Part shown: one piece after another, positions 13,165-44,664 of the stretch
How the letters are laid out: the number at the start of each line of letters is the position of its first letter
Numbering within the stretch: position 1 is the first letter of the stretch
DNA from: a virus
Length of the DNA: 64,000 bases
Direction: 5' to 3' (one strand)
Virus record (IMG/VR): IMGVR_UViG_3300020170_000003
Coordinates: 2,267-66,266 of that record
Notes under the pieces: generated by a model
What the model was told of the DNA's origin: nothing
Seen by the model: the letters and a program-made list of their open reading frames with translations, nothing else
Databases searched by the model: none
Position numbers and translations under genes: made by a program

Positions 13165-13193
13165 TTGACACTGGTTAACAAAATAACTATAGT
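13165..13193 (+). promoter_or_regulatory. Early sigma70-like promoter with operator in spacer
   Basis: TTGACA-17-TATAGT; GTTAACAAAATAAC at 13174-13187. Confidence 0.8.
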
Positions 13194-34244: not shown

Positions 34245-34273
34245 TTGACATAGGTTATCAAAATAACTAATAT
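34245..34273 (+). promoter_or_regulatory. Sigma70-like promoter with perfect operator in spacer
   Basis: TTGACA-17-TAATAT; GTTATCAAAATAAC at 34254-34267. Confidence 0.8.
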
Positions 34274-36402: not shown

Positions 36403-36532
36403 TTATGGCTGACATGTGTTCTGGATGTGGCAAACACCCTGCTTTAACGAAGCTTTCAGGCCGAAGAGTAAACAGGCAAGCGCCACGATCTTTGTCAAAG
36501 ATGTTTCAGGAGTGGGAACGATAGCAGACGAA

Positions 36533-37099
36533 ATGAAGCCACGAAAACCGCTCAAGAAAATATCGGACAAACGGCTGAAGATGTTGAAAGAAGCGAATGG
36601 GAATATTTTCTCTTTGCAGCACAATAGTACGATTAGGAGGAAGCTATGCAATGCGCAGAGTGCGGAACAGAAATTACTAGTTCCGACATATACCCAAACG
36701 CCTACGGCTTCGCATTCTGTGAATCTACATCGGTTCCGATTGAACAAGAAGCATGCGAAGACAAATTTGAGCGCAAACGTTGGCAAGCAGCGCAAACCCG
36801 TAAACAAACAGAGCACAAAACAGAAAGCAAGACTCCAGAAGCTAGCGGCAACAAGACAGAGATGGTGGGACGAAGCGCAAGCTAGTGGCAAACCCCTTAA
36901 CTGTGGAATATGCGACGAAGAAATTAGGATGCAAGAAGAGTTGGCGAGTGATCACATCGAACCCGGAAACGGAAAGTCTGACAGTGAGACTAATTTACAG
37001 CCAACTCACGGCATTTGTAACGTAATAAAAGGGTCGAAAAGGAATTTTAAGATTGTGTGCGGGGACAGGAATTGGCGGTTGATTCACGGGTTGTTATGA
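36533..37099 (+). CDS. HNH endonuclease (NinG-like basic N-terminus)
   Basis: CGIC...DHIEP...NLQPTHGICNVIKG. Confidence 0.7.
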   Translation: MKPRKPLKKISDKRLKMLKEANGNIFSLQHNSTIRRKLCNAQSAEQKLLVPTYTQTPTASHSVNLHRFRLNKKHAKTNLSANVGKQRKPVNKQSTKQKARLQKLAATRQRWWDEAQASGKPLNCGICDEEIRMQEELASDHIEPGNGKSDSETNLQPTHGICNVIKGSKRNFKIVCGDRNWRLIHGLL

Positions 37100-38015: not shown

Positions 38016-38471
38016 ATGGCTGATACTCACGCAATACTAAAAATCCAAAAGGTGTCATTCCCTAAAAAGAAGAAGCCACGAGGTAAAGGTAAGCCTTTTG
38101 AGAAAGGGAATCAGCATGCGATCACTAAAGGTGAAAAGAGAAATCCCAAAGGATTAAATCAGTGGGGTAATGGAGCAACGCTAATCAGCGAAGCCTCTAG
38201 ACAGCATTTAGTAAGAAAAGTTCCAAAGCATATAGCAAAAGCTCTTGGGTGCGCAGAGGGCATTACATTCGCAGAGGCTCTAGCTATCAGCGCAAGTCTA
38301 CACGGCATTAATGGTAATATCGCAGCAGCCAAGGAATTGCGCGAGATCACAGAAGGTAAGACGCCGGAAACGATATATCTCTCAGGCGGGAAAGATAAAG
38401 ACGGAGAAACGCTTCCGGTAGCTACGACCACAACGCTTAACATCATGTTTGTTGATCCACCAAAGAAGTAA
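38016..38471 (+). CDS. terS: Terminase small subunit
   Basis: GKPFEKGNQ...RNPKG motif, helical core, upstream of TerL. Confidence 0.65.
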   Translation: MADTHAILKIQKVSFPKKKKPRGKGKPFEKGNQHAITKGEKRNPKGLNQWGNGATLISEASRQHLVRKVPKHIAKALGCAEGITFAEALAISASLHGINGNIAAAKELREITEGKTPETIYLSGGKDKDGETLPVATTTTLNIMFVDPPKK

Positions 38472-38694: not shown

Positions 38695-40020
38695 GTGTCC
38701 TTTCCTAGTATTCAGTTCCCCCGCAAAGCTCAGATACTTTTTAGGCCCGCCCGATACAAGGTGCTCTATTCGGGGCGAGGGGCTGCGAAGAGCTGGTCAG
38801 TAGCTAGAGCGTTATTACTGAAGGCTCACACGACGCAGAGGGATAAAGACGGACTCCCATTCCGTATACTCTGTGCTAGAGAAATACAGACATCGATCAA
38901 GGATTCAGTCCATGCATTACTTAAGGCGCAAATCGTAAAACTTGGGCTAGCCAACCATTTCAAGATCACAGATATATCCATCGTGAGCCGCGTAACGGGC
39001 GCGGAGTTCATCTTCAAAGGGTTGCGTTCAAACATTAACGAAGTAAAGTCGATGGAAGACATCGATATATGTTGGGTGGAAGAAGCGCAGAGTGTAAGCA
39101 AGGCATCGTGGGACGTGCTAGGGCCGACGATCAGGAAACCAGGAAGCGAGATTTGGATAACGTTTAATCCAGACGAAGAGAAAGACGATACCTTCCAGAG
39201 GTTCATAGTCCATCCTTCAGGCGATATCGCATCGGTAAAAATGTATTGGTGGGAAAATCCATGGTTTACCGATGAGCTGGAAAAAGAGAGGATGGCGCTC
39301 AAGAAAAAGGCGGACGAAAATCCAGAACTATACGCAGCGGACTATGCGCACATATGGGAGGGAGACTGCAAGCAATTTTCGGATGCTGTGATATTCAAGG
39401 GCCGTTACGACATACTTAGTTTCGACTGGAAACAGGTATTAGCGGAACGCGGAATAGACGAAGGGAACCAGAGATGGTTCCATGGAAACGACTTCGGATT
39501 TGCCAACGATCCAAATTACCTTGGAAGATCTTTTGTCACTGAAGGCATTGACAGAATAACCGGAGCAAAAGAAGAAGAACTTTGGGTGGAAGGAGAGGTC
39601 TTTGGATACGGAGTGGAAATCGACAATCTGCCTGATTTGTTTGACGGTAAAGTGCCGAACAAAAAAGGGATGGACACGGCGCGAACGTGGCCAATAAAGG
39701 CGGACTGCGCCAGGCCGGAAATAATCAGCTACCTGGCGAGGCAAGGATTCAATATTACGGCGGCGGACAAATGGCCCGGAAGCGTAGAGGATGGAATCGC
39801 GCACCTCAAGATGTTCAAGAAGATTCATTTGCATAGGGAGAATACGCCGCTTGCCCAAACGCAAATGAGGCTCTATTCGTACAAGGTGGACAAGAATGGA
39901 GACATCTTGCCGATCATTCTCGACAAGCATAACGATTACATCGACCAACAACGTTATGCCCTAGACGGCTTTATCCAGCGTAGGGGAACGGGCGCAATAT
40001 GGGCCAAATTGGGGCAGTAA
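38695..40020 (+). CDS. terL: Terminase large subunit, PBSX family
   Basis: RYKVLYSGRGAAKS, ILCAREIQTSIKDSV, FKGL, WVEEAQ, TIRKPGSEIW.TFNP, DFGF..DP, HYID..RYAL-like end. Confidence 0.95.
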   Translation: MSFPSIQFPRKAQILFRPARYKVLYSGRGAAKSWSVARALLLKAHTTQRDKDGLPFRILCAREIQTSIKDSVHALLKAQIVKLGLANHFKITDISIVSRVTGAEFIFKGLRSNINEVKSMEDIDICWVEEAQSVSKASWDVLGPTIRKPGSEIWITFNPDEEKDDTFQRFIVHPSGDIASVKMYWWENPWFTDELEKERMALKKKADENPELYAADYAHIWEGDCKQFSDAVIFKGRYDILSFDWKQVLAERGIDEGNQRWFHGNDFGFANDPNYLGRSFVTEGIDRITGAKEEELWVEGEVFGYGVEIDNLPDLFDGKVPNKKGMDTARTWPIKADCARPEIISYLARQGFNITAADKWPGSVEDGIAHLKMFKKIHLHRENTPLAQTQMRLYSYKVDKNGDILPIILDKHNDYIDQQRYALDGFIQRRGTGAIWAKLGQ

Positions 40021-40028
40021 AATAACTC

Positions 40029-40057
40029 TTGACAGCGGTTATCAAAATAATTATAGT
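40029..40057 (+). promoter_or_regulatory. Sigma70-like promoter with operator, driving morons between terL and portal
   Basis: TTGACA-17-TATAGT; GTTATCAAAATAAT at 40038-40051. Confidence 0.8.
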
Positions 40058-40082: not shown

Positions 40083-40307
40083 ATGACAAATATAACCAAT
40101 TGGAATGATTACGCGGCCAAATTCAAGAAATGTTTTGTTCGTAAAGAAGTTTCAGTTATTCAGGCTACTCGACATGAATCCAGCCGAGAAATAGAGCAAT
40201 GGGTTGTTTTTGTTCCTTCGCCTGCTGTTGTTGGCACAGTATCCTGTAAGGATATCGATCAAGCTCGTTCTGTTGCGGCGCAGTACGGATGTACGATAAT
40301 TCTTTAA
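40083..40307 (+). CDS. Hypothetical moron
   Basis: AAGGAGG RBS, ATG 40083. Confidence 0.5.
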   Translation: MTNITNWNDYAAKFKKCFVRKEVSVIQATRHESSREIEQWVVFVPSPAVVGTVSCKDIDQARSVAAQYGCTIIL

Positions 40308-40640
40308 ATTGGAGGTATAAATAACCATGACACGTTCTGAAGCTGAAACCAAAGTTGCTACCTGGGCAAGACTTGGCAAGTTAAATCCTGATCACAAAAC
40401 CTGTCCATTGTCAGCCAACCAAAAGTCTTACCGTGAGACAATTGGCGAATGCGGTCGTAATGTTCCGCAGTACTCCGATCCAGCGCGATAAATAATATGA
40501 GTATTTGTCCACTATGTAACAAGACAACAGAAGGCATCGGCAAATGGTTAATCTGTACCCTTTGCTATCTGACGCCAGCACATCTGATTGCTCGTTCAGA
40601 ATCTCTTCTTGGCATCGTAAGAAGTTGGATTCAGTGAATC

Positions 40641-40961
40641 ATGGGACAACATAAAGGCTGTACATTCTTCGGAGCAACGCGCAGAGGGGTTAAAGTTAAA
40701 CCTGCCCCTAAGCTATCCTTGCGCCAAAGACTGCAAGAGATCGTGGCCGAAGCAATGGGAATAGATGCCGCTGACGTGACGGACTCTTATGAAATCAAAG
40801 CGGAAGCGGATTTAATGCACGATGGCTTAATTGAGTTGGTAGAAATATCAGTAGCAATTGAGTACGAGTACGAGTTAGAAGAAATATTCACATACGACAA
40901 TGAGCATGTGTTTGAAAGCTTCGGGACACTGCTCCAATTTGTAAAATCTTACGTAATTTAA
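40641..40961 (+). CDS. Acyl-carrier-protein-like protein lacking the phosphopantetheine Ser
   Basis: RLQEIVAEAMGIDAADVT...DLMHDGLIELVEISVAIEYEY aligns with the AcpP pattern RVKKII.EQLGV..EEVT...DLGADSLD.VELVMALEEEF; DSL is DGL. Confidence 0.6.
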   Translation: MGQHKGCTFFGATRRGVKVKPAPKLSLRQRLQEIVAEAMGIDAADVTDSYEIKAEADLMHDGLIELVEISVAIEYEYELEEIFTYDNEHVFESFGTLLQFVKSYVI

Positions 40962-41021: not shown

Positions 41022-42872
41022 ATGGCGGCGAAGAAAACCCCTAAAAAACCGAGCACAAAATCAAAGGCACAAGATATAAACGAAGCCCTTGATTCCTTCC
41101 GCAACTTTGCCGCTGGTATCGGTTACGGCACAAACAATATATCGACAGGTGGAACATACGGGTACAACCCGATAACCCTAATTCGTCCATTGCTGGAATG
41201 GATGCATCGAGGACAGGGGCTGTGTGGCACGATTGTCGATTGTGTAGCTGATGATATGACACGCGCTGGAGTGGATATCAAAGGCAAGATGAAGCCTGAG
41301 GATATCGAGAAAATAAACGAATCAGCTGTGACTCTGGGAATCTGGAATAGTCTAAATGAAACCATCAAGTGGTCAAGATTGTACGGCGGCTGCTTAGGAG
41401 TAATACTGATTGATGGTCAAGACCTGTCTACTCCATTCAGAATCGAATCAGTGGGCAAAGATCAATTCAAGGGAATACTCCCGTTAGATCGTTGGATGGT
41501 TACTTGCGACATGGAGCGAACGGTAGATGATTTCGGGCCTAACTTCGGACTGCCTAAGTTCTATACCGTGATTCCAACAGCGCCAGGATTGATAGGAATG
41601 AGAATCCATCACTCGCGCTGTATCAGGCTAGGTGGTATCAAGCTCCCTTATTGGCAGGCAATTACCCTGCAATTCTGGGGCGAGAGTATTTACGAAAGAA
41701 TCTGGGACATCCTGCTTGCTCTTAATAGCTCAACTCAGGGCATAGCGCAGTTGATGTACAAGCTGCATCTGAGAACCTACACAATTGAAGGGCTAAGGCA
41801 GCTAGTTGCTACTGGGGGAACGGCGTTAGCTGGGCTGATGGCGCAAGTTAACTTCATGCGATCTACTCAATCGAATGAAGGCATGACGCTGCTCGACAGT
41901 AAAGACAAATTTGAGCACTTCCAAAACAGCACAGTCAGTGGCGCTTCTGATGTGTTGATACATTTCCTTGAGCAAATAAGCGGAGCGGTGCAGATTCCAT
42001 TAGTAAGACTTTTGGGGCAGAGCCCGGCAGGATTGAATGCAACGGGTGAAAGCGATCTGCGAACCTACTATGACGAAATAGCGCGTCAACAAAAATCGGC
42101 TATGATGGTGCCAATTACAAACGTGTATCGCTGTATTGTGCAAAGTCTTGGGATGGAGTGGCCAGAGGGAACCACAATAGGATTTAAACCATTGTGGCAA
42201 TTGGATGCAACCGAGAAAGCGGATATATCGACAAAGCTAACTGATAATGTAGTTAAGCTTACCGAAGCTGGTATTTTGTCGAATCAAACCGCGCTAAAGG
42301 AAATCAGGCAATCAAGCGAAGAGACAGGATTCGGAACCAACATTAGCGATGAAGATATAAACAACGCTGAATCTGACCCTGCACCATTACCGCAAGCGGA
42401 AGAAGTAGCGGAGATTAAAAGCAAGAGCGAATCAGCTAAGGACAGCATAGAAAAAGTTATGGCTTTTGGCTTGAAGCACGGCCTGAATATAGTTACCGAA
42501 AATGAGCAAGGAACATACCGCGAAGGGCCAACGTGGAGAGCGTTGATGCCAGCGGATTATGGCTATATATTTGGGGCAGAAGGAAATGACGGTGACTATC
42601 TGGACTGCTTTGTAGGCCAGAATATTAACAGTAAAAAAGTGTTCGTTATTGCCCAGAATAAAATAGGGTCAAAGGACTTTGACGAGCACAAAGTAATGCT
42701 GGGATACGATTCACAAGATGCGGCAGTGAACGATTACGTTCGCAGTTTTGATCCGCCTGAGATGGGAATGCAGATAATTCGCGGAGTGGACGCCATGACG
42801 ATGGATCAATTCAAGCGAATGATGGCCAACGGTGATTTTGTAGAACCAATAATAATTTACGTTCCGGTATAA
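41022..42872 (+). CDS. Portal protein (DUF1073 type) fused to a C-terminal inorganic-pyrophosphatase-like domain
   Basis: IVDCVADDMTRAG, WSRLYGG, PLVRLLGQSPAGLNATGESDLRTYYD; C-term NI.TEN..G..R...MP.DYGYI.G..G.DGD..D.FVG...FDEHKVMLGY. Confidence 0.85.
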   Translation: MAAKKTPKKPSTKSKAQDINEALDSFRNFAAGIGYGTNNISTGGTYGYNPITLIRPLLEWMHRGQGLCGTIVDCVADDMTRAGVDIKGKMKPEDIEKINESAVTLGIWNSLNETIKWSRLYGGCLGVILIDGQDLSTPFRIESVGKDQFKGILPLDRWMVTCDMERTVDDFGPNFGLPKFYTVIPTAPGLIGMRIHHSRCIRLGGIKLPYWQAITLQFWGESIYERIWDILLALNSSTQGIAQLMYKLHLRTYTIEGLRQLVATGGTALAGLMAQVNFMRSTQSNEGMTLLDSKDKFEHFQNSTVSGASDVLIHFLEQISGAVQIPLVRLLGQSPAGLNATGESDLRTYYDEIARQQKSAMMVPITNVYRCIVQSLGMEWPEGTTIGFKPLWQLDATEKADISTKLTDNVVKLTEAGILSNQTALKEIRQSSEETGFGTNISDEDINNAESDPAPLPQAEEVAEIKSKSESAKDSIEKVMAFGLKHGLNIVTENEQGTYREGPTWRALMPADYGYIFGAEGNDGDYLDCFVGQNINSKKVFVIAQNKIGSKDFDEHKVMLGYDSQDAAVNDYVRSFDPPEMGMQIIRGVDAMTMDQFKRMMANGDFVEPIIIYVPV

Positions 42873-42896: not shown

Positions 42897-43859
42897 ATGG
42901 AAATAATAAAAGATTTAATGGCTATGTATCCCGAGGTAAAGGTTGAAATAAAAAGCCAAAACAAAAACCGTATCACTCGGGACGCATTTTTATTTCTAAC
43001 TCCAAAAACCGATAACCAAAATGACTACTTTGCTCAGTGTGGCCCATGCAGAATGTTCGTTCCCGATAAGTACCTTGAAGGGAAGTTAAAGGGTGACAGG
43101 TGTATTATTCATGGCTCAAAGCAAGTAGTTAATGAGGGCATGTCATGCGGCTTTATGTGCTCATGGCCAACACCCAATGGATCGCCGGTTGAGCATGTCA
43201 TCAAGGATCACGCAGCTGAACTGTTAAAGATCATCCCAGGCTCAGTCACCGCTAAAGATTCTGGACTAGTTGATCGTAGAGTACAGTGCCATAGATGTAG
43301 GTTTAGTGATGGCAATAAATGCGGACTCTATCGAAGGCTAAATCAGGCCATGCCACAAATATTCGATCTGGACGAATCCATTACGCCCAATTCATGTTGC
43401 AATGCACAAGAGCCATAATAGTCTTACCGTGAGACAAAAATGAGAGGAAATAGATTCTGCTCTACGTTAGTTGATTGTCCTATCTGTAAGGCCCCACCCG
43501 AATTACAGTGTGGCGTGAACCAACCCGGCGATATTCCTAATCACACTGAAAGAGCGCGTCAATCAAGATGGCTGCAAATGTACGTGGAAAGTAGCGCAAG
43601 CAAGTTGGGCAATGTCTTCGATGAAGTATTCACAGAAATACAGTAATAGTTTATAATGATAACCATGAAACGAATCCTGATTGACTACGACGAAACAACC
43701 TGCAACATGGGAGTAAGGGCCGAAGGCTTCACGGATGCGGAAGTAATTGTAGTCTTGAGGGAAGCGCAAAAAAAGGCCGAAGAAGCGGTAATAGAAAACC
43801 TCAAGAAGAAGAAAGTTAGTCTTGTTAGTTCACTAGGAATAAACCTTCCGAGAATATAA
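42897..43859 (+). other. Morons between portal and MuF (42897..43418 Cys-rich; 43440..43646; 43656..43859)
   Basis: Internal promoter TTCACA(43629)-17-TATAAT(43652) overlapping an operator-like site. Confidence 0.45.
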
Positions 43860-43863
43860 AGTT

Positions 43864-44664
43864 ATGGGCGAGGCTCAAGCTATTATCCAGTATCCTACAG
43901 TCCACGAAGCGATTGCCTCCAAATTCTGTCAGCCCCATTATGTGACATTATTTGAAGTGCGTGATTCCACCGGGTTTGATTCGACGCGATCTGCTGATGC
44001 TTTATCCGTGGCTCTATATGGTACGCGTGGCCGCGAAATAACCGGATTCGAGATTAAGCGTTCTAGATCTGATTGGCTACGCGAATTAAAAATGCCAGAG
44101 AAAGCGGAAGAAATCGGTAAATTCTGCGACTGGTTTTACCTCGTGACAAATGATGAATCCGTGGCGCGACCAGATGAACTTCCAATGCCTTGGGGTTGGA
44201 TGGTGTTGAAGGGTGCGCGGCTCAAGACCATCAAGAAGCCAGAGAGAATGAAGCCGTTCCCTCTGGATCGGCACATGCTGTGTTCGCTGCTCTATTCCGT
44301 TCGCCAGCAGTGTCTTATAGAAATCGAAATGCAAATCAAGGCAGCCGTTGATAAGCGCATTAAATCTGAGGCCAGCGAGTTGAAGTATCAGGCCGAAGAA
44401 GGTGAGCGCAAATACAAAGAACTGCAAAAGGTAGTCAGAGAGTTTGAGGATGCCAGCGGTGTCTCGGTTCAAAGTCATTGGCTTGATAGGCCGAAGATCG
44501 GCGCGGCGGTGAGACGGGTTCTGAAAGAAGGCGACACACTCAAAGAGTACAAGCGCGATCTGGAATGGATTTGTAGTCGGGCGAAGACCGTAGCAAGCAA
44601 CATGGAAAGAGAATTACTGGAATTAGAAAAAGAAAACAATGCCAACCCCTCGCCAAATCCGTAA
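43864..44664 (+). CDS. MmcB-like PD-(D/E)XK nuclease-fold protein
   Basis: FEV...ADAL...GFEIKRSRSDWLREL..PEK...CD.FYLV...ELP..WG. Confidence 0.6.
   Translation: MGEAQAIIQYPTVHEAIASKFCQPHYVTLFEVRDSTGFDSTRSADALSVALYGTRGREITGFEIKRSRSDWLRELKMPEKAEEIGKFCDWFYLVTNDESVARPDELPMPWGWMVLKGARLKTIKKPERMKPFPLDRHMLCSLLYSVRQQCLIEIEMQIKAAVDKRIKSEASELKYQAEEGERKYKELQKVVREFEDASGVSVQSHWLDRPKIGAAVRRVLKEGDTLKEYKRDLEWICSRAKTVASNMERELLELEKENNANPSPNP

What the first reader, a model, noticed from the sequence alone, without database searches (positions are those of the whole stretch)
40641..40961. Acyl carrier protein mimic without the phosphopantetheine serine, in an early-type moron operon
Seen: an acidic protein matching the AcpP helix pattern, but with DGL where DSL is required, so it cannot be loaded. 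It lies downstream of the operator-controlled promoter at 40029, between terL and portal. Known: ACP is a hub bound by FAS enzymes, AcpS, SpoT and MukB. Inference: a decoy that blocks lipid synthesis, stringent-response signalling, or an ACP-dependent defence or toxin system.
Basis: partly seen in the sequence, partly recalled or inferred. Interest (0 to 1): 0.7.

Follow-up and report, generated by a model that had tools for sequence, protein, structure and literature searches.

The report
Phage serine-less acyl carrier look-alike
An uncultured phage keeps, between its DNA-packaging and portal genes, a small protein shaped like the bacterial fatty-acid carrier protein but lacking the serine that holds its cofactor, so it must work by binding other proteins; its partner is still unknown.

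Summary
ORF 40641-40961 (+) encodes a 106-aa protein with a disordered basic N-terminal tail (residues 1-25, pI 11.2) and an acidic core (pI 4.05). The core is a true but very divergent acyl carrier protein (ACP) homologue. A family profile hits only ACPs in the PDB (best E 7e-8). An AlphaFold model matches only carrier proteins (Z 8-11, TM about 0.8). No curated ACP model reaches its cut-off.

None of 24 relatives has Ser or Thr at the phosphopantetheine site, and the Gly codon is conserved, so this is not a sequencing error. dN/dS is 0.10-0.27. The better-supported alignment puts Leu63, not Gly62, at the Ser position.

The gene is the one persistent member of a hypervariable accessory island between terL and portal. 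A divergent branch couples it to an HNH gene instead. The promoter at 40029 is real and recurs in one relative, but five relatives have no promoter there, and no terminator precedes portal.

It is therefore a non-carrier binding module. A host ACP-client decoy is the leading reading but is untested (about 0.3). This scan has already noted serine-less ACP look-alikes in several other phages. This is a separate family with Gly/Leu at the site and a basic tail.

The parts
40029..40057 (+). Sigma-70-type promoter TTGACA-17-TATAGT with an operator-like spacer (GGTTATCAAAATAAT), immediately after the terL stop codon
   Evidence: 11 of 12 consensus. The same 29-bp pattern occurs at 13165 and 34245, with 0 of 100 shuffles matching. 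A near-identical promoter follows terL in relative L008 at 2835-2863.
40084..40307 (+). First small ORF of the island (74 aa from the ATG behind AAGGAGG). No family match and not conserved in relatives.
40327..40491 (+). Second small ORF (54 aa). No family match and not conserved in relatives.
40497..40637 (+). Third small ORF (46 aa) with CPLC...CTLC, possibly a zinc ribbon. Its stop lies 3 nt before the ACP-like start.
   Evidence: no significant family
40641..40961 (+). Serine-less ACP-fold protein gene (106 aa, P0001)
40641..40715 (+). Residues 1-25: disordered basic N-terminal tail (pI 11.2) with the family motif MGxxKGxT[FY]FG. No counterpart in ACPs.
   Evidence: pLDDT below 50. Motif conserved in both subfamilies, G6 nearly invariant. 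Charge. pN/pS 0.16 against the closest relatives.
40716..40958 (+). Residues 26-106: acidic four-helix ACP core (pI 4.05), with helices at 27-39, 52-58, 62-76, 85-91 and 94-105
40821..40829 (+). Codons GAT GGC TTA (Asp61-Gly62-Leu63) at the N-terminus of helix II, the place of the ACP Asp-Ser-Leu phosphopantetheine site. There is no hydroxyl residue.
40824..40868 (+). Helix II (residues 62-76), the counterpart of the ACP recognition helix. Glu68, Glu74 and Glu76 are nearly invariant in the family and align with AcpP E41, E47 and E49.
38695..40020 (+). Large terminase subunit (left flank of the accessory island)
   Evidence: PF04466, E 1.4e-34
41022..42872 (+). Portal protein with a C-terminal InPase domain (right flank). 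No terminator between it and the ACP-like gene.

Best explanation
**What is shown.** The gene encodes a selected, folded ACP homologue that cannot be phosphopantetheinylated. It is therefore not a carrier and must act purely by binding.

**What is inferred.**
- The conserved acidic face of helix II and the following loop (invariant Glu68, Glu74, Glu76, Glu81) docks on a basic patch of a partner, as ACPs do.
- The basic, disordered N-terminal tail gives a second contact.
- The most likely partner class, by a small margin, is a host protein that normally receives AcpP and tolerates its apo form (of the AcpS or PlsB type). The phage protein would then compete with host ACP.

**Odds.** I put about 0.85 on 'non-carrier binding module'. 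I put about 0.3 on the specific host-ACP-client decoy. The confidence given is for the decoy reading.
For: **Real, selected gene.** There are 24 relatives in 5.8 billion protein clusters. dN/dS is 0.10-0.27.

**ACP homology and fold.**. The only NCBIfam hits are ACP models.

**No Ser or Thr at the site** in any member that covers it.

**No partner enzymes found in the phage.** No phosphopantetheinyl transferase, Fab or acyltransferase gene turned up among the ORFs searched. No PF00550 match exists in the 66.6-kb genome, which CheckV rates complete.

**Docking surface.** The core has pI 4.05. Nearly invariant Glu68, Glu74, Glu76 and Glu81 align with AcpP E41, E47, E49 and E53, and the helix-II hydrophobic pattern is kept. 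Helix II is the docking site of ACP for its many partners (PMC3340395).

**Precedent.** Obligate apo-ACP (S39A) suppresses E. coli growth, and apo-ACP inhibits glycerol-3-phosphate acyltransferase (PMC4736557, citing Keating et al. 1995).

**Accessory rather than core.**
- The gene is absent from 50,697 GenBank phage records, although 2,050 of them share the portal type.
- It sits in an island whose other genes differ in every relative.
- In the window and in L008 the island has its own regulated-looking promoter.
Against: **Only about 20% identical to any ACP.** There is no Pfam hit for this protein. The best ACP model scores 23.5 bits against a 71-bit cut-off.

**Docking residues differ.** Asp35 becomes Gly, Val43 becomes Ser (Ala in most relatives), Met44 becomes Val and Glu48 becomes Tyr. 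Loop I is four residues longer.

**AcpP partners are sensitive to such changes.** In E. coli, single changes at these positions abolish binding to SpoT, MukB, FabZ/FabA or PlsX. IscS needs D35, D38 and S36.

**Features with no ACP counterpart.** The conserved tails point to a new interaction.

**Expression context.** In five relatives the gene is embedded without a promoter gap in the terL-to-portal string, so it is probably expressed late there.

**Divergent branch.** There it overlaps an HNH gene and a nuclease-like gene, which points to phage DNA transactions.

**Host unknown.** No host partner could be tested.
Confidence: 0.3

Rival explanations
1. Phage-internal adaptor or chaperone. The acidic ACP core binds a very basic phage DNA-handling protein (HNH endonuclease, small terminase or a nuclease). 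It holds or regulates that protein during DNA processing and packaging.
For: **Window-type phages.** The gene always lies in the packaging region, between terL and portal.

**Divergent branch (L009, L010, L011).**
- Its start overlaps the end of a roughly 90-aa HNH gene.
- In L010 and L011 its end overlaps a conserved 141-158-aa gene.
- In L009 that gene lies two small genes downstream.

**Basic candidate partners in the window.** The window's own HNH protein (36416-37099) and terS candidate (38016-38471) have strongly basic stretches.

**Expression.** In five relatives the gene has no promoter of its own and would be made together with the packaging genes.
Against: - Cultured phages with the same terminase, portal and MuF module lack the gene altogether, so it is not a core packaging factor.
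- In window-type phages it is not adjacent to HNH.
- Its neighbours change from phage to phage.
- The HNH adjacency comes from a single lineage with conserved gene order, so it may be inherited synteny.
Confidence: 0.25
2. Anti-defence protein acting as an acidic nucleic-acid mimic. The negatively charged surface blocks the DNA-binding site of a host restriction, SMC-type or other defence protein. The ACP fold is only the scaffold.
For: **Properties of the protein.** It is small and acidic (core pI 4.05).

**Island context.** It sits in a hypervariable island with its own strong, operator-bearing promoter inside a Mu-like head module.

**Neighbours in relatives are DNA-modification genes.**
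- PAPS_reduct.
- Dam and a helicase-N6_N4 methyltransferase.

**Precedent.** Acidic phage DNA mimics with tailored targets exist, for example T7 gp5.9 against RecBCD and MukBEF (PMC7617805).
Against: - It is the conserved anchor of the island, whereas anti-defence genes are usually the variable part.
- Nothing shows that the charge pattern imitates DNA.
- All structural neighbours are carrier proteins, and none is a known mimic.
- The basic tail is not expected in a DNA mimic.
Confidence: 0.2
3. It is still a carrier. A prosthetic group or acyl group would be attached at another residue or by an unusual transferase.
For: The ACP fold and hydrophobic core are intact.
Against: - No Ser, Thr or Cys is conserved anywhere near the N-terminus of helix II. 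Ser70 and Cys7 are not conserved.
- No transferase or acyl-handling enzyme was found in the genome.
Confidence: 0.03
4. Decaying relic of a phage ACP gene, without function.
For: It shows loss of the catalytic Ser and strong divergence from ACPs.
Against: - dN/dS is 0.10-0.27 over pairs with saturated synonymous sites.
- The reading frame is intact in 24 relatives, with 16 nearly invariant positions.
- A confident fold is predicted in two subfamilies.
Confidence: 0.02

Closest known systems
Bacterial type II fatty-acid-synthesis acyl carrier protein AcpP (PF00550 PP-binding; TIGR00517 / PRK00982)
   Same: - Same four-helix fold: Z up to 10.8 against E. coli AcpP in 4ihf, TM about 0.8.
- Detectable sequence homology.
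- Acidic helix II with Glu at the positions of E41, E47 and E49.
- Similar size of the core.
   Different: - No Ser36 and no Asp35.
- Four extra residues in loop I.
- Ser and Val in place of V43 and M44.
- A 25-residue basic N-terminal tail.
- Far below every curated family cut-off.
- Encoded by a phage with no FAS or PPTase genes found.
Phage-encoded orphan ACPs (PHROG 5934; for example Xanthomonas phage phiXF1 gene 111; 'acpP' counted as an auxiliary metabolic gene in prophages, PMC8224337)
   Same: - A small stand-alone ACP-fold gene in a phage without a full lipid pathway.
- hhalign probability 95.6% against the phiXF1 protein.
   Different: - The phiXF1 protein keeps GADSLD and scores 70 bits on ACP models.
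- This family has no Ser, and its PHROG 5934 match is only E 0.053.
- It carries an extra N-terminal tail.
Engineered obligate apo-ACPs (E. coli S36T, Synechococcus S39A)
   Same: - ACP fold that cannot be modified.
- Such proteins are growth-inhibitory and block glycerol-3-phosphate acyltransferase (PMC4736557). This shows that a serine-less ACP can act as an inhibitor.
   Different: - Those are point mutants, otherwise identical to the host ACP.
- This protein is about 20% identical to any ACP.
- S36T also loses binding to IscS.
Serine-less ACP look-alikes noted earlier in this scan in other phages (Ackermannviridae, jumbo and marine phages)
   Same: - Phage ACP-fold proteins with the cofactor Ser replaced in all relatives.
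- Partner unknown.
   Different: - No sequence look-alike of this protein was on record in the scan.
- Those families have Glu or Asp at the site.
- This one has Gly-Leu (or Lys-Trp in its second subfamily), a basic tail, and a terL-portal or HNH-linked position.
T7 gp5.9 and other small acidic phage inhibitors (works-like comparison only)
   Same: - A small acidic phage protein that could block a basic binding site.
- MukBEF, which carries AcpP as a subunit, is a proven phage target (PMC7617805; AcpP chains of the MukBEF entries appear among the PDB hits).
   Different: - Unrelated fold.
- No evidence here for DNA mimicry or for any target.

Membership tests
Acyl carrier protein superfamily (PP-binding, PF00550) | Four-helix carrier-protein fold | tested here: met
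   - AF2 core pLDDT about 90.
- Foldseek top 50 are all carrier proteins, TM by target 0.67-0.84.
- VIA-align over 48,161 chains: top 50 are all carrier proteins, Z 8.1-11.1.
- A model from the second subfamily shows the same core.
Acyl carrier protein superfamily (PP-binding, PF00550) | Statistically supported sequence homology to ACPs | tested here: met
   - The family profile against the PDB gave 75 hits, all ACPs, best E 7.3e-8.
- hhalign against a canonical phage ACP gave 95.6% probability, E 1.1e-8.
AcpP proper (TIGR00517 / PRK00982; Pfam gathering score) | Score above the curated family cut-off | tested here: not met
   - Pfam: no hit at E up to 1 for this protein.
- Only 9 of 24 relatives touch PF00550, best E 0.013.
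- NCBIfam best is 23.5 bits against a cut-off of 71.
AcpP proper / any functional carrier protein | Conserved Ser in the Asp-Ser-Leu motif at the N-terminus of helix II (phosphopantetheine attachment) | tested here: not met
   - The site reads Asp-Gly-Leu-Ile here.
- The Ser-equivalent column holds Leu, Gln, Phe, Glu, Trp or Gly in the 22 relatives that cover it, never Ser or Thr.
- The Gly codon is conserved.
AcpP proper | Acidic recognition helix II (D35, D38, E41, E47, E48) with a central Leu-Val-Met | tested here: inconclusive
   - Glu65, Glu68, Glu74 and Glu76 are kept.
- D35 is Gly, E48 is Tyr and LVM is Ile-Ser-Val.
- Whether it still docks on ACP clients cannot be judged from sequence alone.
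AcpP proper | Cognate transferase or acyl-handling enzymes encoded with it or available to it | tested here: inconclusive
   - None was found among 30 large ORFs searched with Pfam or PHROGs.
- No other PP-binding match exists in the genome.
- Small ORFs and the host remain unexamined.
Phage orphan ACP family PHROG 5934 | Significant match to the family profile | tested here: not met
   E 0.053, 14.7 bits, residues 26-80 only.
DNA-mimic anti-defence proteins (Ocr, gp5.9, ArdA type) | Surface charge array that imitates DNA and binds a DNA-binding defence or repair protein | not testable with these tools
   Only net acidity is shown. No mimic appears among the listed structural neighbours, and that absence does not exclude the family.
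Nuclease-immunity pairs (colicin DNase / Im type; works-like comparison) | Small acidic helical protein encoded immediately downstream of, and translationally coupled to, an HNH nuclease gene | tested here: inconclusive
   - Met in the divergent branch: L009, L010 and L011 have overlapping HNH and ACP-like genes.
- Not met in the window, where HNH lies 3.5 kb upstream.
- Binding is untested.

The most novel reading that the evidence does not exclude
A lineage of uncultured phages has turned an ACP into a dedicated, permanently apo inhibitor that displaces host AcpP from one essential or defensive client. Candidates include the AcpS/PlsB step of envelope lipid synthesis or an AcpP-dependent SMC complex of the MukBEF/Wadjet kind. 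This would be a natural counterpart of the toxic apo-ACP mutants and, together with the other serine-less phage ACPs seen in this scan, a convergent viral strategy.
Probability: 0.2. Interest if true: 0.75.

Novelty: new variant of a known kind. Interest (0 to 1): 0.45.

Why it matters
ACP is one of the most connected proteins of the bacterial cell. Unmodified ACP is known to be toxic. A phage protein that keeps the ACP fold and acidic docking helix, but can never be loaded, is a ready-made probe for which ACP contact matters during infection.

My literature searches found no description of serine-less phage ACPs. Public annotation calls some members simply 'acyl carrier protein', which is misleading for metabolic (AMG) inventories.

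This family is rare, comes only from uncultured phages with unknown hosts, and has no identified partner. For now it is a well-characterised lead rather than a mechanism.

Tried and rejected
1. **Complex prediction.** The HNH protein of L011 was folded with its overlapping ACP-like neighbour P0026. The verdict was 'no answer', score 0.00. This is neither for nor against binding.
2. **Sequencing runs.** No run holding window:39000-42000 was listed and no RNA holder was listed. This says nothing about expression.
3. **Host search.** Neither the protein nor terL found a relative in 185,579 species genomes.
4. **Fused or longer forms.** None was found, which is weak evidence.
5. **Three phmmer hits (P0006, P0007, P0009).** These are Cna_B or other repeat proteins and were discarded as spurious.
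6. **PAPS_reduct as a fixed partner: rejected.**
   - It follows the gene in L003, L013 and L014 but is absent from the window.
   - It is 95% identical between phages whose ACP-like genes are 66% identical, so it is a recently moved cassette.
7. **Small genes between terL and portal of Edwardsiella phage vB_EpM_ZHS.** They are unrelated to this protein.
8. **A shared C-terminal 'HGRL/HGR' ending.**
   - It looked like a motif, but in the ACP-like proteins it is imposed by the overlapping start of the next gene (ATGGCAGACTCTAA / ATGGAAGATGA).
   - An unrelated 91-aa protein in the L008 island also ends VSHGR without such an overlap. That one is left unexplained.
9. **N-terminal MGxxKG motif as a shared targeting signal.** It occurs on no other ORF of the genomes examined.
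10. **GenBank phages.** There was no DNA match. By protein, only a canonical ACP matched, at E 0.4.

Full report
**1. The object.**

ORF 40641-40961 (+) encodes 106 residues. It lies between the large terminase (38695-40020; Terminase_3, E 1.4e-34) and a portal-InPase fusion (41022-42872; Phage_portal_3, E 1.8e-97). The window is nearly all of a 66.6-kb viral contig that CheckV rates complete. The contig's nearest cultured relatives, at 44-49% portal identity, infect Proteobacteria. No prophage relative exists in the species genome set, so the host is unknown.

**2. Is it ACP-like?**

- Pfam gives no hit even at E 1, and PHROG 5934 'acyl carrier protein' only E 0.053.
- phmmer against all PDB sequences returns 35 hits, every one an ACP (best 1.8e-3).
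- A profile of eight relatives returns 75 hits, again all ACPs, best 7.3e-8.
- hhalign of the 24-member family against the canonical ACP of Xanthomonas phage phiXF1 gives 95.6% probability.
- NCBIfam matches only ACP models, but at 23.5 bits against a 71-bit cut-off. The phiXF1 ACP scores 70 bits.
- The AlphaFold model built on the family alignment has a core pLDDT of about 90 and a disordered tail at residues 1-21.
- The Foldseek top 50 PDB matches are all carrier proteins, TM by target 0.67-0.84.
- A search that does not depend on Foldseek, over 48,161 representative chains, lists 50 carrier proteins with Z 8.1-11.1.
- The ESM Atlas look-up agrees.

The fold and the homology are therefore established, while membership of AcpP proper is not.

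**3. The serine.**

Searching with the family profile raised the family to 24 clusters in 5.8 billion. They form two subfamilies. None of the 22 members that cover the site has Ser or Thr there.

Pairwise phmmer puts Gly62 opposite the Ser. The profile alignment and hhalign give a gap-free helix II in which Leu63 takes the place of Ser36 and Gly62 that of Asp35. The model's helix II starts at residue 62. In the second subfamily the corresponding residues are Lys-Trp.

The codons GAT-GGC-TTA are conserved as Asp/Asn-Gly-x in seven relatives, so a sequencing error is excluded. Pairwise dN/dS is 0.10-0.27. Nearly invariant positions include Arg30, Asp42, Asp48, Tyr50, Glu68, Glu74, Glu76, Glu81, Phe91, Phe94 and Leu97. 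The four Glu align with AcpP E41, E47, E49 and E53.

**4. What is not ACP-like.**

- Residues 1-25 form a basic tail (pI 11.2, against 4.05 for the core).
- The tail carries the motif MGxxKGxT[FY]FG, which is shared by both subfamilies.
- The tail is under constraint between close relatives (pN/pS 0.16).
- The second subfamily adds a disordered C-terminal extension.
- Loop I is four residues longer than in ACPs.
- The motif occurs on no other ORF of the genomes examined.

**5. Context.**

The promoter at 40029 is TTGACA-17-TATAGT. Its spacer GGTTATCAAAATAAT defines a class that also occurs at 13165 and 34245, with none in 100 shuffles. A near-identical promoter follows terL in relative L008. 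Three small ORFs without relatives precede the gene. No + strand terminator separates it from portal, so the transcript probably continues into the head genes.

The terL-portal interval was compared across L001, L003, L006, L008, L012 and L013/L014.
- It holds from two to nine accessory genes.
- The ACP-like gene is the only accessory gene shared by all of these islands.
- In L003, L006, L012 and L013/L014 there is no gap for a promoter after terL.
- A PAPS_reduct cassette follows the gene in three loci but is absent from the window.

In the divergent branch (L009, L010, L011) the gene overlaps the end of a roughly 90-aa HNH gene. It is followed by a conserved 141-158-aa gene, whose start it overlaps in L010 and L011; in L009 that gene lies two small genes downstream. 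All this sits downstream of a helicase-methyltransferase and upstream of Dam.

GenBank phages with the same portal type lack the gene. No lipid, PPTase or acyl-handling gene was found among 30 large ORFs of the window.

**6. Mechanism.**

Shown:
- The protein is a selected ACP-fold protein without an attachment site.
- It has a conserved acidic helix II.
- It has lineage-specific disordered tails.
- It is an accessory gene, not part of the core packaging module.

Inferred: it acts by binding.

| Reading | Probability | Main support | Main problem |
|---|---|---|---|
| Host ACP-client decoy | about 0.3 | ACP ancestry; toxicity of obligate apo-ACP and its inhibition of glycerol-3-phosphate acyltransferase (PMC4736557) | ACP partner binding is fragile: M44I or V43E abolish binding to SpoT, MukB, FabZ/FabA or PlsX, and D35G-P55Q came from the screen for loss of SpoT binding (PMC3340395); IscS needs D35, D38 and S36 (PMC13343975). 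This protein differs at exactly such positions. |
| Phage-internal adaptor for a basic DNA-handling protein | 0.25 | HNH coupling in the divergent branch; embedding in the late operon | Absent from cultured phages with the same packaging module |
| Acidic mimic or anti-defence protein | 0.2 | Island behaviour; DNA-modification neighbours; the gp5.9 precedent (PMC7617805) | It is the conserved anchor of the island, not a variable member |

A co-fold of the HNH with the ACP-like protein gave no verdict, and that result is not used as evidence.

**7. Comparison and novelty.**

Phage ACPs that keep the Ser are catalogued (PHROG 5934) and are counted as auxiliary metabolic genes (PMC8224337). My literature searches found no paper describing serine-less phage ACPs.

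Earlier notes of this scan report serine-less ACP look-alikes in several other phage groups, with Glu or Asp at the site. None is a sequence look-alike of this protein. These are unchecked AI notes. They suggest a recurrent theme but are not evidence here.

I rate this as a new variant of a known kind, with moderate interest.

Noticed in passing
window 40029-40057; L008 2835-2863; window 13165-13193 and 34245-34273: One promoter class (TTGACA, spacer GGTTAnCAAAATAA, TATAGT-like) sits directly after the terL stop codon both in the window and in a relative with 74% terL identity. It recurs elsewhere in the window. The conserved spacer suggests a phage-specific regulator site.
   Followed up: partly
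L003 2296-3018; L013 5318-6040; L014 5318-6040: A PAPS_reduct (adenine-nucleotide alpha-hydrolase) gene overlaps the end of the ACP-like gene in three relatives. It is 95% identical between phages whose ACP-like genes are only 66% identical, so it is a recently exchanged cassette. It is absent from the window.
   Followed up: partly
L009 5739-7214; L010 258-1363; L011 7742-9272: In a divergent phage group the order is HNH (about 90 aa), serine-less ACP-like gene, a conserved 141-158-aa protein, then Dam in L011. The HNH and ACP-like genes overlap in all three loci. The 141-158-aa protein looks by eye like a PD-(D/E)XK or resolvase-type nuclease but has no PHROG match. It overlaps the ACP-like gene in L010 and L011 and lies two small genes further on in L009. 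The whole block sits downstream of a helicase-N6_N4 methyltransferase fusion.
   Followed up: partly
L001 76-393 and L011 9269-9562: A second small accessory protein (about 100 aa, shared motif DDCMWM) is found near the ACP-like gene in both subfamilies (29% identity, E 1e-10). It is not in the window. It may travel with the ACP-like gene.
   Followed up: no
window 40497-40637: A 46-aa ORF with CPLC...CTLC, possibly a mini zinc ribbon, ends 3 nt before the ACP-like start. It has no relatives in the related loci.
   Followed up: no
window 41022-42872; L012 4281-5843; L013 6102-7520: The portal carries a C-terminal InPase domain (PF18823, E 1.9e-30) in the window, L001, L003 and L008. The portals of L012 and L013 are shorter and lack it, so the fusion is variable within the group.
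   Followed up: partly
window 42897-44664: Further accessory genes are inserted between portal and the MuF-like gene, including a Cys-rich 173-aa protein (42897-43418) and a 266-aa protein (43864-44664). A promoter-like site lies at 43629 (TTCACA-17-TATAAT). The head module of this phage is interrupted in several places.
   Followed up: no
P0006, P0007, P0009 (search hits, not in the window): Long Cna_B or other repeat proteins reached E 1e-13 to 4e-5 against residues 55-104 of the query, through many weak repeated stretches. They are unrelated and are a caution for counting family size from that search.
   Followed up: yes
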